In this document: positions 30,721 to 35,016 of the stretch, in pieces
Position numbering within the stretch: position 1 is the stretch's first letter
Layout of the letters: every line of letters begins with the position of its first letter
DNA from: a virus
DNA: 64,000 nucleotides
IMG/VR virus record: IMGVR_UViG_3300041809_000571
Span: 51,841 to 115,840 of that record
Reading direction: 5' to 3' (one strand)
Made by a program: the position numbers and the translations under genes
Notes under the pieces: generated by a model
What the model was told of the DNA's origin: nothing
What the model saw: the letters and a program-made list of their open reading frames with translations, nothing else
Databases searched by the model: none

Positions 30721-30751
30721 GGGGACCATCGCTGGTCCCCCTTCTCAATTC
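30721..30751 (-). terminator. rho-independent terminator of the MVP-like gene (bidirectional hairpin)
   Basis: GGGGGACCA-TCGC-TGGTCCCCC; minus strand reads hairpin then TTTTTGTTTTGT just downstream of stop 30761. Confidence 0.6.
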
Positions 30752-30760
30752 CCGGCCCGA

Positions 30761-33202
30761 TTACTTGGGCAAGGGCAGTGACTTGCCTTTGCTCTGGACG
30801 TTCGCCAGAACCGTCTCAAGGGCCGTTCCCTTGAAGATGCGCTCCAGCGTAGTTCCCAAGCCCTGCTGTTCGTTGATTGCCAACGGGGCAATCGCCGTAG
30901 CCAGCTTGCTGGCGAACTCGGTCTGACCGAGCGTGTTCATGGCTGCAACCAAGTCAGGCGTGATAGCTGCCATGCGCTTCTCGAAGAAACCGACCCGCTC
31001 CTCTTCCAAGCTGATGTCGTAGTCGTTCTCCATCTTGCGCCGGTCGAACACCGAAGCCGAGATAACGTCCTTCTGCTTCTCAGCCTCGATTTCCGCTTCC
31101 CGTGCCCGGACCGCCTGCTTGATGTTGAACTCCAACTGAGTCATGGCGGTTTCGGCTACAGCAGCGGACAACTCCCGGTTGAGTTTCTCCTTGGCTGTCC
31201 TTGCCTGAGTTTCGAGTTCGGAAATCTCAGTCTGGATAGCCGTGCTGCGGCGGACGTTCTCAAGCTTCTGCTCGTCCATGGACAGCTTGATAGTCGATTC
31301 CACCGCTGCGATTTGTCCCTCGCTCAACAGGTTGGCGATTTCGGCGTCAGCGATTTGCGCTCCGAGTACTTCAACGTCGTAAACCTCCATGCCGTTTTCC
31401 GGGAACAGACGGAACCGGCGCTTGTACGCATCCTTGGTGCCAAGCACGATGTCCCGGACCAAGGTAGCGGTGTCCTGCATGACTTCCCGGATGCCCTGCT
31501 TGTGCAGTTGACCCTTGAGCAGGGAGCGCATGTGGTCGCACAGGTACTTCACGTAGTTCTCCACGGAGAACCACTTGTCCTGATACTCCCGCAGGAAGTT
31601 GACTCGGTAGGACAGCCGCAGTTCGACATGTACCAAGTCCTTGGTTTCGACCCGCACGATGTCACTGACCAAGTTGTTGTCGATGCGCAGATACACGTCA
31701 CGAATCAACTTGTCGGTGGTCTTCGGCTTGCCGGTGCTGAGTTCGATGATTTCAAGTGTCTCGTCGTACTCAAGCAGGACCGTTGCCGGACCCACGACTA
31801 CCCGGCGATTGCCGGACTTATCCACGACTTGCACTGCCCAGCCGGTCCAGACGTTGATGCTGGGGATACCATCGTACTTAGTGTTAAGCGTCAGCATGGG
31901 CGGAGGCGTGTAGCTCGTGCCCCGGCGCATGGTTTCCCCGCCGTAGCCCTTGCTTCCCTGCGTGCCCCGGTTGATGCTGCGGCTGGCGTCCGCTGCCGCC
32001 GACAGGAGTGCAGACTCGGCGAGATAAGAAGCGGAGTTCTCGGACAAGGACCGCAGTTGGGCGTTGAAAGCGGCGGCTTCCTCGTTACCGGGGTACCACA
32101 GCCGGACCTTGCGGTCATCCAACACACGGCGGACAATGACCTGATTGCGGGGGTCGGGGAGGAAAATCTGCGGTCCGGTGACCGTCTTGATTTCCCCTGC
32201 CGCCTTGTCAAGGACGTAGCGGCCTTCACCCTTGGGGATGGTGACGCCGTAGTAGCGTTGGCGCTTGAATCCCTTGCCGGGGTCGTCGTATTCAATAAGG
32301 GCGTGCTCCGGGCGGGGGTAATAAATACGCTGTTCCTTACCCGTGGGGAAGAGTTCATCCCCGGTGTTGTGCTCCACCCCGTCTTCATCGGTGTAGTCGG
32401 CGATGACCTTGATGTATAGACCCATCTGGTCGTTCAATTCGATGGCCTTGAATTTGAAGGCTCCCCGCTGACTGTCGCCGTCATCGCTCTTTCGGACAAA
32501 GCGCTCGGTCGCTTCGGGGAACACAACCTGCGGTCCCCGCTCGTACCGCTTCTTGCCGTCTTCGTCAAGCAGGATGCAGTACTCCAGCAACTCCAACGTG
32601 AGGGCTTCACGAACGTAGATATTGTTGTTGTTGCTGTCCGGCAGAACCTCGAAACCGGTTTTCGGGATGAAGAAGCTGACTTCCGTGCCCTTGATGACGA
32701 TTTGCTGACCGGGGGTCAGGTCTTTGGCTCCAGCGGCCTTGAGGAAATCCGGGCGGTTCTTATTCGCCTGCTCGGCGTTGTAGACCCGCACCACGAGGTA
32801 CTGATTGGAACGCAGGTGGTGACCCGAGATGGCTTGGGCTACTTGTCCGGGCCAGAGCGGCATGGTTGCCGGGCCGAGGATGTTAATCTTGCGCCCGACT
32901 TCCAAGTTGATGGGGCTGTTGCTGCCCGCCTTGGGGAAGGTCAGTTCTCCCTTGTTGTCAGTGGCGGGGTTTTCGAGAACCAAATAGTGTCCCTCGGGGA
33001 CCAGCGGATTCTGCTTGATGGCTTCGGTAAGCTGGACTTGGGTGAAGGTGTCGGTTTCCTTGTTGTAGGTGACCGGGCGGTCGTTGCCCGACAAAGCGAG
33101 GACATACGGCCCGGCGTAGACCTGCACGGTGCCCTTTGTGGCGTCCTGAATAAAGGCGTACTGGTTCTGGGCAAGCACTAGTTGACCCTGAATCTCTGGC
33201 AT
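30761..33202 (-). CDS. major vault protein (MVP) homolog
   Basis: 813 aa; N-terminal MVP-type beta repeats, shoulder segment AVQVVDKSGNRRVVVGPATVLLEYDETLEIIEL and VETKDLVHVELRLSYRVNF matching human [34 protein letters not shown] and ETADHARLQLQLAYNWHF, then long cap-helix coiled coil; GGAGG RBS 5 nt upstream. Confidence 0.85.
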   Translation of the reverse strand: MPEIQGQLVLAQNQYAFIQDATKGTVQVYAGPYVLALSGNDRPVTYNKETDTFTQVQLTEAIKQNPLVPEGHYLVLENPATDNKGELTFPKAGSNSPINLEVGRKINILGPATMPLWPGQVAQAISGHHLRSNQYLVVRVYNAEQANKNRPDFLKAAGAKDLTPGQQIVIKGTEVSFFIPKTGFEVLPDSNNNNIYVREALTLELLEYCILLDEDGKKRYERGPQVVFPEATERFVRKSDDGDSQRGAFKFKAIELNDQMGLYIKVIADYTDEDGVEHNTGDELFPTGKEQRIYYPRPEHALIEYDDPGKGFKRQRYYGVTIPKGEGRYVLDKAAGEIKTVTGPQIFLPDPRNQVIVRRVLDDRKVRLWYPGNEEAAAFNAQLRSLSENSASYLAESALLSAAADASRSINRGTQGSKGYGGETMRRGTSYTPPPMLTLNTKYDGIPSINVWTGWAVQVVDKSGNRRVVVGPATVLLEYDETLEIIELSTGKPKTTDKLIRDVYLRIDNNLVSDIVRVETKDLVHVELRLSYRVNFLREYQDKWFSVENYVKYLCDHMRSLLKGQLHKQGIREVMQDTATLVRDIVLGTKDAYKRRFRLFPENGMEVYDVEVLGAQIADAEIANLLSEGQIAAVESTIKLSMDEQKLENVRRSTAIQTEISELETQARTAKEKLNRELSAAVAETAMTQLEFNIKQAVRAREAEIEAEKQKDVISASVFDRRKMENDYDISLEEERVGFFEKRMAAITPDLVAAMNTLGQTEFASKLATAIAPLAINEQQGLGTTLERIFKGTALETVLANVQSKGKSLPLPK

Positions 33203-33258
33203 GATTCCTCCGCAAGTTTTCTAAGATAGAAGACCCAATCACAAAGGGTCATCACGAG

Positions 33259-33529: not shown

Positions 33530-33565
33530 CGTATTATCGCTATGTGGTTCTAAATAGGAGACTCC

Positions 33566-34045
33566 ATGGCGACGGAAATCAAAGCACCCGAAGCGGTCAT
33601 TCTCGATAAGTACAGCATTTTCTTGGGCGGAGCCATCGACCAAGGCAAAGCGGCCAACTGGCAAAAAGAAGTCGTAAAGGCCCTCAAAGACCTTGACGTG
33701 GTCATCCTCAATCCCCGGCGTGACAACTGGGACGCTTCCATCGAACAAGACCCCGGCAACAAGACCTTCCGTGAACAGGTGGAGTGGGAAATCTCCGGGC
33801 AGGAGAAAGTGGACCTGCGGCTGTACGTCTTCACCAAGGATAGCAAAGCCCCCATCACTTTCTTTGAAATGGGAGCCTTCGGCACCGACAAGGATTCTGT
33901 GGCCTGCGCCGAGGACGGCTTCTACCGGCAGGGGAACCTCGATATCTACTGCCAGCATTTCAAAATCCCTATGTACCATGATTTTGATGACCTGCTCGCT
34001 GACCTCCACGAGGCACTTGAAGGAAAAGTGCAAAAGGAGGGATAG
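33566..34045 (+). CDS. nucleoside 2-deoxyribosyltransferase / ADP-ribosyl-cyclase-fold protein
   Basis: SIFLGGAI early and PITFFEMGAF (NDT-type catalytic Glu motif); GGAG RBS. Confidence 0.5.
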   Translation: MATEIKAPEAVILDKYSIFLGGAIDQGKAANWQKEVVKALKDLDVVILNPRRDNWDASIEQDPGNKTFREQVEWEISGQEKVDLRLYVFTKDSKAPITFFEMGAFGTDKDSVACAEDGFYRQGNLDIYCQHFKIPMYHDFDDLLADLHEALEGKVQKEG

Positions 34046-35016
34046 TGAGGCTGGTCTTCTCCGCTAAATTTCTAACCACCCCAAAATTCGCCGTCCTTCC
34101 CAAGCGCCCCGGCTTGGTGGGTCCACTTTTTCATGGAACCAATGAGGTTTTTGACAAGTTCATGCTCCCCGAGGATATCACTGACCACGGGGGATTGGGG
34201 ATTCATTTCGGAAATGCCCGACAGGCTAATACCATGCTGGACTTTCTGGAACACGACAGAGAACGGTGGAATCCAGACGAAGCGGAGTATCCGCAGGGAG
34301 AGCCTGTCTACAACATCCACCCGGTCTACCTGAGAATCAAAAACCCCCTGCGGCTTCCCGACCTCGTAGAGTGGCACCCACGGGAAATCGGCAAACAGCT
34401 TTTCCGCCGCAAGGTGATAACGGCTAAAACGTGGGCGGCTTTCCTAGATTTGAGTTGGAAGAATCCCCCGGTAGGTCCCACTCGTACTCAAGCCTATGCC
34501 ATGATTCGTAAGTGGATTGAGGAGGCCGGGTTCGATTCCGTTGTCTACAAAAACAAGTTTGAGGGCAGTGGAGACAGCTATATCATTTGGCACCTCGGTC
34601 AAATTGTCCCCGCCTTTCGCCGCCGTGGCAGCCTCACCAAAACCGCTGCAATTTGGAATAACGGCTGGATAACTCCGAGGGGTAGGTGGAAGGCCCTTGA
34701 GGACGGAGAGACGCACGCTAGCGCCCTTCCAGAGCGATTACGGGTACTCTGGAACGAATGGGCGGGAGGAGACAACCAAGCAATCAAGGAAGGCTGGATT
34801 CGGGTCATTATCGAAGAAGCTTACTGGGACCACAATAAGACCGGGAAGAAAATGGCCGATTTCAACTTTCAGACTTATGACACCAATACCCGGCAGCGGA
34901 TACGCCGGGCGATTCTCAGTCTGGACCCGGAGATTGAGATGGTGGGGCTGGATTGTGAGGAAGTGCCGGGATTCGAGACCCTGACCGCTGAGGATGCTTT
35001 GAAGCGGGTGGGGTAA
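34045..35016 (+). CDS. putative ADP-ribosyltransferase-fold protein (PARP/Tpt1-like H-G-T motif)
   Basis: LFHGTNEVFDKF (cf. PARP LWHGSR..NF, KptA LYHGTASRF), GLGIHFGNA (cf. GKGIYFAD), PVYNIHPVYL (cf. LYNEYIVYD). Confidence 0.4.
   Translation: MRLVFSAKFLTTPKFAVLPKRPGLVGPLFHGTNEVFDKFMLPEDITDHGGLGIHFGNARQANTMLDFLEHDRERWNPDEAEYPQGEPVYNIHPVYLRIKNPLRLPDLVEWHPREIGKQLFRRKVITAKTWAAFLDLSWKNPPVGPTRTQAYAMIRKWIEEAGFDSVVYKNKFEGSGDSYIIWHLGQIVPAFRRRGSLTKTAAIWNNGWITPRGRWKALEDGETHASALPERLRVLWNEWAGGDNQAIKEGWIRVIIEEAYWDHNKTGKKMADFNFQTYDTNTRQRIRRAILSLDPEIEMVGLDCEEVPGFETLTAEDALKRVG

What the first reader, a model, noticed from the sequence alone, without database searches (positions are those of the whole stretch)
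30721..35016. Possible vault-like module: MVP homolog plus NDT/ADP-ribosyl-cyclase-fold protein plus PARP/Tpt1-like ADP-ribosyltransferase
Eukaryotic vaults carry a PARP (vPARP). Two genes from the MVP homolog, ORF 34045-35016 shows the ordered ART motifs H-G-T (LFHGTNEVF), G-I-H-F-G and YNIHPVY, corresponding to the PARP H-Y-E/I triad regions. Between them, 33566-34045 has the N-deoxyribosyltransferase fold motif (FFEMGAF). That fold is shared with ADP-ribosyl cyclases and NAD-processing enzymes. This co-localisation suggests an NAD/ADP-ribose-linked function attached to a vault-like shell. The ART assignment rests on short motifs only.
Basis: inference. Interest (0 to 1): 0.85.

Follow-up and report, generated by a model that had tools for sequence, protein, structure and literature searches.

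The report
Phage vault-protein gene beside unrelated ADP-ribosyltransferase cassette
A huge phage carries a true major-vault-protein homologue next to a nucleoside-deoxyribosyltransferase-like gene and an ADP-ribosyltransferase, but related genomes gain and lose these genes independently, so they look like neighbouring accessory genes and not a vault-plus-PARP machine.

Summary
The three domain calls hold. Gene 30761-33202(-) is a full-length MVP homologue. Gene 33566-34045(+) belongs to PF15891 (Nuc_deoxyri_tr2). Gene 34045-35016(+) has an ADP-ribosyltransferase (ART) fold and belongs to the phage ART-PolyVal family (PF18760), not to PARP or Tpt1.

The "vault-like NAD module" reading is not supported.
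- Nineteen contigs whose MVP is 94% identical lack a clean 2,954-bp block (33548-36501) that holds NDT, ART and a zinc-ribbon gene.
- L001 keeps the ART (86% identical) but lacks the MVP cassette (30517-33310).
- L002-L008 keep NDT and ART without MVP. L191 keeps MVP and NDT without the ART domain. Only L190 keeps all three.
- In 160 further MVP loci (80 viral, 80 bacterial, ±10 kb), an ART-PolyVal HMM found nothing and the NDT HMM found two genes.
- One 501-kb phage has both genes, about 270 kb apart.
- The NAD+ pocket residues of human MVP are mostly not conserved.

Best reading: MVP is a monocistronic insertion on the opposite strand, with its own terminator. It sits beside a separate, translationally coupled NDT-ART operon in a variable early / nucleotide-metabolism region. 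Phage MVPs have already been reported. Interest is modest.

The parts
28884..30484 (+). tRNA array (Tyr, Leu x6, Ser x3, one odd tRNA, plus one extra tRNA-like element at 30401-30484). It forms the left flank of the MVP insertion. An HNH gene at 28964-29431(-) lies inside it.
   Evidence: ARAGORN; Rfam; PHROGs HNH 8e-34
30517..33310 (.). MVP cassette as an insertion/deletion. L001 matches the window up to 30516 and again from 33311, so the whole MVP gene is missing there.
   Evidence: blastn of L001 against the window
30714..30747 (-). Intrinsic-terminator-like hairpin (15-bp stem, then a T-run) 14 nt after the MVP stop codon. It indicates a monocistronic minus-strand unit.
   Evidence: This is a consensus scan; the count of such sites in the region is not above the shuffle expectation, but this is by far the longest stem.
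30761..33202 (-). Major vault protein homologue, 813 aa. It has beta-rich N-terminal repeats, a shoulder (SPFH-like, about aa 510-617), a 126-residue cap helix (aa 620-745) and C-terminal helices.
   Evidence: Pfam; PDB sequence hits; AF2 model; Foldseek to rabbit, human and rat MVP at E 5e-33 to 1e-27; more than 6,500 homologues
33323..33529 (+). Conserved 68-aa backbone ORF of unknown function. It is present in relatives with or without MVP, NDT or ART.
   Evidence: tblastn: 100% identical in L009, 79% in L001, 32-39% in L002-L007
33548..36501 (.). A 2,954-bp block (NDT + ART + zinc-ribbon gene) that is cleanly absent from the closest relatives. L009 matches window 30710-33547 and then continues directly at 36502.
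   Evidence: blastn and alignment; the same arrangement in 8 places standing for 19 contigs
33566..34045 (+). Nucleoside 2-deoxyribosyltransferase-like protein (PF15891), 159 aa. The conserved Glu of the FFEMGAF motif is present. An RBS (TAGGAG) lies upstream of the start.
   Evidence: Pfam 1.3e-28, PHROG 30579 8e-34, PDB 4mcj 2e-21; sequence
34045..35016 (+). ADP-ribosyltransferase of the ART-PolyVal family, 323 aa. The catalytic domain is about aa 20-190 (nt 34102-34614), with invariant H30, H54, D164, Y168, N170, E173 and S178. An orphan C-terminal domain covers about aa 195-323 (nt 34627-35013). The GTG start overlaps the NDT stop (TAGTG) and follows an AAAGGAGGG RBS.
35149..36192 (+). 347-aa protein with a C-terminal zinc ribbon (DUF7577). 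It travels with NDT and ART in the relatives that keep the block.
   Evidence: Pfam; synteny
36647..37180 (+). NUDIX hydrolase, a backbone gene. In the closest relatives it follows the 68-aa ORF directly.
   Evidence: Pfam 3.6e-8; synteny

Best explanation
The region holds two evolutionarily independent accessory units that happen to abut, in a variable stretch of a huge phage genome between a tRNA array and a nucleotide-metabolism block (NUDIX, ThyX, dCMP deaminase, dGTP diphosphohydrolase).

Unit 1 is a monocistronic, opposite-strand gene with its own terminator. It encodes a full-length MVP homologue from a very large prokaryotic and phage family. By homology it probably forms an SPFH-type cage or vault-like shell; this is inferred, not shown.

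Unit 2 is a plus-strand operon made of a PF15891 NDT-like N-glycosidase/transferase, an ART-PolyVal ADP-ribosyltransferase translationally coupled to it, and a zinc-ribbon protein.

The ART most likely uses NAD+ to mono-ADP-ribosylate a host macromolecule during takeover or counter-defence, as proposed for ARTs of phage polyvalent proteins and shown for T4 Alt/ModA/ModB. Its orphan C-terminal domain probably supplies targeting. The NDT-like enzyme most likely acts on nucleotides or nucleosides, like its genomic neighbours. Nothing indicates that units 1 and 2 need each other.
For: Domain identities.

Independence of the units:
- There is a clean indel of 33548-36501 in L009/L010/L011 and in 8 places standing for 19 contigs, with MVP 94% identical.
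- There is a clean absence of 30517-33310 (MVP) in L001, which keeps the ART at 86% identity.
- L002-L008 have NDT and ART without MVP at the syntenic site, and L014 has them with no MVP within about 8 kb of its ART.
- L191 has MVP and NDT, and only the ART's C-terminal domain as a separate ORF.
- ART-PolyVal HMM hits were 0 of 80 viral and 0 of 80 bacterial MVP loci. NDT HMM hits were 1 and 1.
- No neighbour is conserved across the 41 MVP clusters defined at 70% identity.
- A 501-kb phage has ART-PolyVal at about 14 kb and MVP at about 285 kb.

Operon structure: MVP lies on the opposite strand with a 15-bp-stem terminator. The NDT stop and ART start overlap (TAGTG) behind a strong RBS.

Against: One relative, L190 (MVP 91% identical), keeps MVP, NDT, ART and the zinc-ribbon gene together. 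The trio is therefore not unique to the window, and a lineage-specific functional link cannot be excluded.

Eukaryotic vaults are now tied to NAD+ three ways: PARP4, a TEP1 TIR-like NADase distantly related to NDT, and an NAD+/ADP-ribose pocket in the MVP shoulder. The analogy is therefore not far-fetched.

My HMMs detect only ART-PolyVal and PF15891-like genes, not every ART or NADase. NADAR and Macro genes do occur within 10 kb of MVP in some huge phages.

Only parts of the relatives' genomes were available, so ART genes elsewhere in MVP-only relatives cannot be ruled out. No biochemical activity was tested.
Confidence: 0.8

Rival explanations
1. The MVP homologue forms a vault-like shell that houses or cooperates with the ART (as PARP4 does) and with the NDT-fold enzyme (as the TEP1 TIR-like NADase does), making an NAD+/ADP-ribose-linked compartment in infected cells.
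Against: Every presence/absence combination of MVP, NDT and ART is found among close relatives. None of 160 other MVP loci has an ART-PolyVal neighbour. Both genes sit 270 kb apart in a 501-kb phage. MVP is on the opposite strand with its own terminator. The ART has no MINT, PARP or vWA domains, and its C-terminal domain also occurs in L001, where the syntenic site has no MVP. Of 12 mapped NAD+-pocket residues of human MVP, about 3 are kept: K506 is identical, R504 becomes K and D521 becomes N. The NDT-like protein is PF15891, not DUF4062.
Confidence: 0.06
2. NDT-like and ART form a two-enzyme NAD+-centred pair, independent of MVP. The ART transfers ADP-ribose. The NDT-fold enzyme then cleaves or exchanges an N-glycosidic bond in NAD+, NMN, ADP-ribose-derived signals or the released nicotinamide nucleoside, for example to feed the ART or to destroy host immune signals.
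For: The two genes are translationally coupled by a stop/start overlap in the window. They are directly adjacent or overlapping in L002 and L190. The NDT-ART order is kept in L002-L008, L014 and L190. The NDT fold is related to TIR-like NADases.
Against: L001 has the ART without NDT, and L191 has NDT without the ART domain. Four other stand-alone ART-PolyVal loci have no NDT neighbour. PF15891 here sits among nucleotide-metabolism genes, and a second NDT-like gene lies at 22084-22572. There are no matches to NADase or defence families.
Confidence: 0.2
3. The ART is a counter-defence enzyme that ADP-ribosylates a host immune protein (as the anti-CRISPR AcrIF11 does), or it is an NAD+-degrading toxin-like enzyme of the RES/MbcT type. 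It would not be a general host-takeover modifier.
Confidence: 0.2

Closest known systems
Eukaryotic vault particle (MVP shell with PARP4/vPARP, TEP1 and vault RNA)
   Same: The MVP homologue has the same overall architecture: N-terminal repeats, SPFH-like shoulder and a long cap helix. An ART-fold enzyme and an NDT/TIR-superfamily-fold enzyme are encoded nearby.
   Different: There is no PARP catalytic family match, MINT, BRCT or vWA domain. There is no TROVE, DUF4062, NACHT or WD40 protein. No vault RNA or Y RNA was found by Rfam. The NAD+ pocket residues are largely not conserved. The three genes are not co-inherited.
Prokaryotic and phage MVP homologues (bioRxiv 10.1101/2023.11.10.566534; bioRxiv 10.1101/872010)
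   Same: It belongs to the same family. The window protein is 42-46% identical to Myxococcota, Cytophagales and other bacterial MVPs, and to the MVPs of the 462-kb and 735-kb huge phages LR756500 and LR756501. As in the 2023 preprint, there is no TEP1 or vPARP, and the neighbours differ between phages.
   Different: This is a new lineage, found in peat/soil-type huge phages with very large tRNA arrays. The scale seen here is much larger than the two phage genomes of the 2023 preprint: 240 IMG/VR contigs, 483 species-representative bacterial genome contigs and more than 6,500 proteins.
ART-PolyVal, PF18760 (Tox-ART-HYD2 clade; Iyer et al. 2017, PMC5512222)
   Same: It is related by sequence profile and has an ART fold. 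His lies in strand 1 (HGT) and Asp at the front of a core strand (D164). It is of phage origin. Distant homologues are embedded in giant polyvalent proteins, and tandem duplications are common.
   Different: It is a stand-alone 323-aa protein with an orphan C-terminal domain. The strand-2 position described as Tyr for the family is an invariant His (GIHFG) in this subgroup. The direct Pfam score is below the gathering cutoff.
Phage T4 Alt / ModA / ModB
   Same: These are phage-encoded NAD+-dependent mono-ADP-ribosyltransferases used to reprogram host proteins. They are the working model for how this ART acts.
   Different: They belong to a different ART clade (R-S-E) and show no sequence similarity. 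It is not known whether this ART is packaged into the virion.
PF15891 Nuc_deoxyri_tr2 (PDB 4mcj) and the wider NDT / DNPH1 (Rcl) superfamily
   Same: There is a strong HMM match and a strong PDB sequence match. The conserved Glu of the E-[ML]-G motif is present.
   Different: No member of PF15891 close to this protein has a tested activity that I could find. It is not an ADP-ribosyl cyclase and not a DUF4062 or TIR NADase by sequence.

Membership tests
Major vault protein (MVP) | MVP shoulder and vault repeat domains detectable by sequence | tested here: met
   PF11978 at 1.4e-21 and PF17795 at 1.5e-10. Rat and human MVP chains at about 1e-15.
Major vault protein (MVP) | Full-length architecture: N-terminal repeats + shoulder + cap helix | tested here: met
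   AF2 model (mean pLDDT 74). It has beta repeats at 1-360 and 448-483, a shoulder at 510-617 and a helix at 620-745. Foldseek hits full-length MVPs at 5e-33 and R1-R7 at 1e-14.
Major vault protein (MVP) | Assembly into a closed vault cage | not testable with these tools
   Needs expression and electron microscopy.
Vault particle as a system (MVP + PARP4 + TEP1 + vRNA) | PARP-family ART with an MVP-interacting (MINT) domain | tested here: not met
Vault particle as a system (MVP + PARP4 + TEP1 + vRNA) | TEP1-like protein (TROVE, DUF4062 TIR-like NADase) | tested here: not met
   The NDT-like gene matches PF15891 only. No homologue of the DUF2828-type gene that flanks MVP in other phages occurs in the window.
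Vault particle as a system (MVP + PARP4 + TEP1 + vRNA) | Vault RNA | tested here: not met
   Rfam E-value scan of 27000-38000 found only tRNAs.
Vault particle as a system (MVP + PARP4 + TEP1 + vRNA) | NAD+/ADP-ribose pocket in the shoulder (human R504, K506, R507, P508, H509, R511, L517, D521, F522, W545, P565, K573) | tested here: not met
   Mapped through the HMMER alignment to rat MVP: K, K, T, T, D, I, R, N, L, V, E, D. This is a pairwise alignment at low identity, so it is indicative only.
Vault particle as a system (MVP + PARP4 + TEP1 + vRNA) | Components co-inherited or co-localised across relatives | tested here: not met
ART-PolyVal (PF18760) | HMM match at or above the gathering score | tested here: inconclusive
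   The window protein scores 22.7 bits against a cutoff of 31.2. Its homologues carry PF18760, and a profile search retrieves 192 proteins, almost all annotated PF18760.
ART-PolyVal (PF18760) | ADP-ribosyltransferase fold | tested here: met
ART-PolyVal (PF18760) | H (strand 1) - Y (strand 2) - D (strand 5) active site, as described in PMC5512222 | tested here: inconclusive
   H30 and D164 are invariant. The strand-2 position is an invariant H54, not Y. No structural superposition could be made.
ART-PolyVal (PF18760) | Embedded in a large polyvalent protein | tested here: not met
   It is a stand-alone 323-aa protein. Many family members are also stand-alone. Distant ones lie in 1,300-3,900-aa ORFs.
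PARP (PF00644, H-Y-E) | PARP catalytic-domain HMM match and an H-Y-E triad | tested here: not met
   No Pfam hit. The second position is His. Similarity is at fold level only.
Tpt1/KptA (PF01885, H-H-h) | PTS_2-RNA HMM match, closest fold | tested here: not met
Nuc_deoxyri_tr2 (PF15891) | HMM match above cutoff and the conserved catalytic Glu motif | tested here: met
   99.8 bits against a cutoff of 30. PDB 4mcj at 2e-21, with TFFEMG aligned to TLLEMG.
ADP-ribosyl cyclase / TIR-like NADase | Sequence membership (Rib_hydrolase, TIR, DUF4062) | tested here: not met
   No such Pfam, NCBIfam or PADLOC hits.

The most novel reading that the evidence does not exclude
In the lineage represented by the window and L190, the phage MVP shell has recruited the neighbouring ART-PolyVal enzyme (through its orphan C-terminal domain) and the NDT-fold enzyme. 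That would make a bacterial-virus counterpart of the PARP4- and TEP1-NADase-loaded eukaryotic vault: an NAD+-consuming compartment.
Probability: 0.05. Interest if true: 0.85.

Novelty: new member of a known kind. Interest (0 to 1): 0.3.

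Why it matters
If the three genes had formed a conserved module, it would have given a prokaryotic-virus model for the still unexplained link between vaults and NAD+/ADP-ribose (PARP4, the TEP1 NADase and the MVP NAD+ pocket). The comparative data show that the link is not conserved, so the locus does not make that question testable.

Three things remain useful.
- MVP homologues are very common in huge phages and in several bacterial phyla (240 IMG/VR contigs, 483 species-representative bacterial genome contigs, more than 6,500 proteins), yet nothing about them has been tested experimentally.
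- This is a clean natural set of MVP+/-, NDT+/- and ART+/- genotypes in one phage clade, which could be used for genetics.
- There is a stand-alone ART-PolyVal subgroup with an H-H-D/E type site and an orphan targeting domain.

Tried and rejected
- DNA search of the region against GenBank phages found only tRNA matches.
- Direct PDB sequence searches with the ART, alone and as an 82-sequence profile, gave no meaningful hit.
- NCBIfam and PADLOC gave nothing for MVP, NDT or ART.
- The ART C-terminal domain has only 4 homologues in the 1.8-billion-protein library and no Pfam family, so no MINT-like assignment is possible.
- I looked in the window for the genes that flank MVP in other huge phages (DUF2828/DUF7788, RNA ligase, NADAR, Macro). 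None is present; only a Metallophos gene at 22889-23503 matched.
- I tried to tie DUF2828 to Ro60/TEP1 TROVE by PDB sequence search and by literature search, without result, so I make no such claim.
- The promoter scan of 30300-36700 was not above the shuffle expectation.
- I first concluded that the trio was unique to the window. I corrected this after finding L190.
- The exact third catalytic residue (D164 or E173) could not be settled, because model coordinates cannot be superposed with the tools available.

Full report
**What is there**

The window is part of a huge phage-like genome. It holds 37 tRNA genes, and the ART protein is recorded on a 316,945-bp JGI contig.

From left to right, the region of the finding contains:
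- a plus-strand tRNA array at 28884-30484, with an HNH gene inside it;
- a minus-strand gene at 30761-33202 (813 aa), followed by a 15-bp-stem terminator-like hairpin at 30747-30714;
- plus-strand genes: a 68-aa ORF (33323-33529), a 159-aa gene (33566-34045), a 323-aa gene (34045-35016), a 347-aa zinc-ribbon protein (35149-36192) and a NUDIX gene (36647-37180);
- further downstream, ThyX, dCMP deaminase, a Thg1-like gene and a dGTP diphosphohydrolase.

**The MVP homologue**

Pfam matches MVP_shoulder (1.4e-21) and Vault_3 (1.5e-10). phmmer aligns residues 445-708 with rat and human MVP (about 1e-15).

An AF2 model built on 72 homologues (mean pLDDT 74) shows beta-rich repeats, an SPFH-like shoulder and a 126-residue cap helix. 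Its best PDB matches are full-length rabbit, human and rat MVP (E 5e-33 to 1e-27), then mouse MVP R1-R7 (about 1e-14), then SPFH proteins.

The family is very large:
- more than 6,500 proteins in the metagenome database, which JGI already names "major vault protein";
- 240 IMG/VR contigs;
- 483 contigs in the collection that holds one genome per bacterial or archaeal species, including Nannocystis, Enhygromyxa and Plesiocystis chromosomes;
- the 462-kb and 735-kb phages LR756500 and LR756501.

Phage MVPs were reported in a 2023 preprint, which also found no TEP1 or vPARP and different neighbours in each phage. Bacterial MVPs were discussed in 2019.

**The NDT-like gene**

PF15891 scores 1.3e-28, PHROG 30579 scores 8e-34 and PDB 4mcj scores 2e-21, with the Glu-containing motif aligned. 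There is no match to ADP-ribosyl cyclase, TIR, DUF4062 or defence families.

**The ART**

- *Family.* The direct Pfam hit to ART-PolyVal is sub-threshold (22.7 against 31.2 bits). The eight homologues outside its own clade all carry PF18760. A profile of the domain retrieves 192 proteins, and almost all of those listed are annotated PF18760.
- *Conserved residues.* Across 82 sequences the invariant residues are H30, H54, D164, Y168, N170, E173 and S178.
- *Motifs.* HGT (H30) ends strand 25-32. GIHFG (H54) is strand 53-56; this is the position that holds Tyr in PARP and, according to PMC5512222, in the family prototype. YNIHPVY lies on strand 90-96, so it is not the acidic catalytic position. 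The acidic candidates are D164, at the front of strand 165-169, and E173. This assignment is inferred from secondary structure, not from a superposition.
- *Family behaviour.* More distant homologues lie inside ORFs of 1,300-3,900 aa, as the name "polyvalent" implies. Stand-alone forms are also common, and one contig has at least 9 in tandem.
- *C-terminal domain.* It is an orphan, with four homologues among 1.8 billion representatives. In L191 it is a separate ORF.

**Is the trio a module?**

This is the core of the finding, and the answer is no, on five lines of evidence.

1. *Close relatives show every combination.* The table lists what each related locus keeps.

| Locus | MVP | NDT | ART | Zinc-ribbon gene |
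|---|---|---|---|---|
| Window | yes | yes | yes | yes |
| L190 | yes (91% identical) | yes | yes (642 aa, two ART domains) | yes |
| L009/L010/L011 and 8 places standing for 19 contigs, including a 338-kb contig | yes (94%) | no | no | no |
| L191 | yes (86%) | yes | no; only its C-terminal domain, as a separate ORF | yes |
| L001 | no | no | yes (86%) | no |
| L002-L008 (about 55-60% identical backbone) | no | yes | yes | yes, where the contig extends that far |
| L014 | not seen within about 8 kb of the ART | yes | yes | no tblastn match |

   In the 94% group the 68-aa ORF runs straight into NUDIX. blastn shows that window 33548-36501 is missing as one clean block. In L001 the match to the window stops at 30516 and resumes at 33311, so the MVP cassette is missing.

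2. *Other MVP loci.* I fetched 80 viral and 80 bacterial MVP loci with 10-kb flanks. An ART-PolyVal HMM found nothing. An NDT HMM found one gene in each set, L092 and L171.

3. *No shared neighbour.* Clustering of all neighbouring ORFs found no family shared across the 41 MVP clusters defined at 70% identity.

4. *Both genes far apart.* A 501-kb phage has ART-PolyVal at about 14 kb and MVP at about 285 kb. Four other stand-alone ART-PolyVal loci have neither MVP nor NDT nearby.

5. *Separate expression.* MVP is on the opposite strand and has its own terminator. NDT and ART are translationally coupled: the stop and start overlap (TAGTG) behind an AAAGGAGGG ribosome-binding site.

**The NAD+ link of real vaults**

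Recent papers make the analogy attractive. The human MVP shoulder binds NAD+, ADP and ADP-ribose (PMC12280208). TEP1 carries a DUF4062 TIR-like NADase distantly related to NDT domains.

I mapped twelve of the published pocket residues through the HMMER alignment. K506 is identical, and R504 to K and D521 to N are conservative. The others (R507, P508, H509, R511, L517, F522, W545, P565, K573) become T, T, D, I, R, L, V, E and D. The alignment is at low identity, so this is indicative only. It gives no support for a conserved pocket.

**Best explanation and limits**

Two independent accessory units abut in a variable region. One is an MVP insertion. The other is an NDT-ART-zinc-ribbon operon that probably predates it in this phage group and was lost again in the most frequently sampled relatives.

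The ART most likely mono-ADP-ribosylates a host macromolecule. This is inferred from the family context in PMC5512222 and PMC9503650. The NDT-like enzyme most likely belongs with the surrounding nucleotide-metabolism genes, which is also inferred.

Limits:
- only parts of the relatives' genomes were available;
- my HMMs see only two families;
- L190 shows that the trio can persist;
- no activity has been tested.

I give the functional-module reading about 5%.

**Verdict**

Each gene is a new member of a known family, and the interest is modest.

Noticed in passing
L036 6590-8158, 13684-14436, 17666-19048; L013 19075-19554; L012 13680-14459: In one subclade of huge phages (25 of 83 MVP loci, 7 of 41 MVP clusters at 70% identity), MVP is flanked by a DUF2828/DUF7788 protein directly upstream, with a Metallophos phosphoesterase and an RNA-ligase-like gene downstream. 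NADAR (19 loci) and Macro (13 loci) genes lie within 10 kb. This looks like an RNA-repair or ADP-ribose-processing context and may be the more meaningful association of phage MVPs.
   Followed up: partly
L109 5001-10645: At least nine stand-alone ART-PolyVal paralogues lie in tandem, preceded by two ankyrin-repeat genes, in a 90-kb contig.
   Followed up: no
window 34627-35013; L191 3676-4086: The C-terminal domain of the ART is a separate, very rare module. It is a stand-alone 136-aa ORF in L191 (83% identical), stand-alone in P0242 and P0243, and matches seven stretches of the 1,205-aa protein P0244.
   Followed up: partly
window 30401-30484: An extra tRNA-like element at the end of the Leu/Ser tRNA array was missed by ARAGORN. 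It is a sub-threshold match to the Rfam tRNA-Sec model (37 bits). The same stretch matched regions annotated tRNA-Ser in mycobacteriophages.
   Followed up: no
window 28964-29431 (-): An HNH endonuclease gene (PHROG 2255, 8e-34) sits inside the tRNA array, between tRNA-Tyr and the Leu tRNAs.
   Followed up: no
window 41430-42200 and 22084-22572: A Thg1-like tRNA-His guanylyltransferase gene (3e-26) occurs in a genome with 37 tRNAs in 64 kb. A second, weaker NDT-like gene (PF05014, 2e-6) lies 11 kb upstream of the first.
   Followed up: no
window 29824-29894 and 58939-59012: ARAGORN reports two tRNA-like genes with abnormal two-base anticodon calls ('ga' and 'tt') inside the arrays.
   Followed up: no
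L039, L045, L054, L058, L068, L084, L088, L098: Many MVP-bearing huge-phage loci carry a tRNA with a CTA anticodon (an amber suppressor, which ARAGORN calls Pyl). This hints at TAG recoding in those phages.
   Followed up: no
L190 2507-4435 (-): The ART orthologue in the 219-kb relative is 642 aa. It has an extra N-terminal region of about 160 aa, two tandem ART-PolyVal domains and the same C-terminal domain. This shows rapid domain shuffling at the locus.
   Followed up: partly
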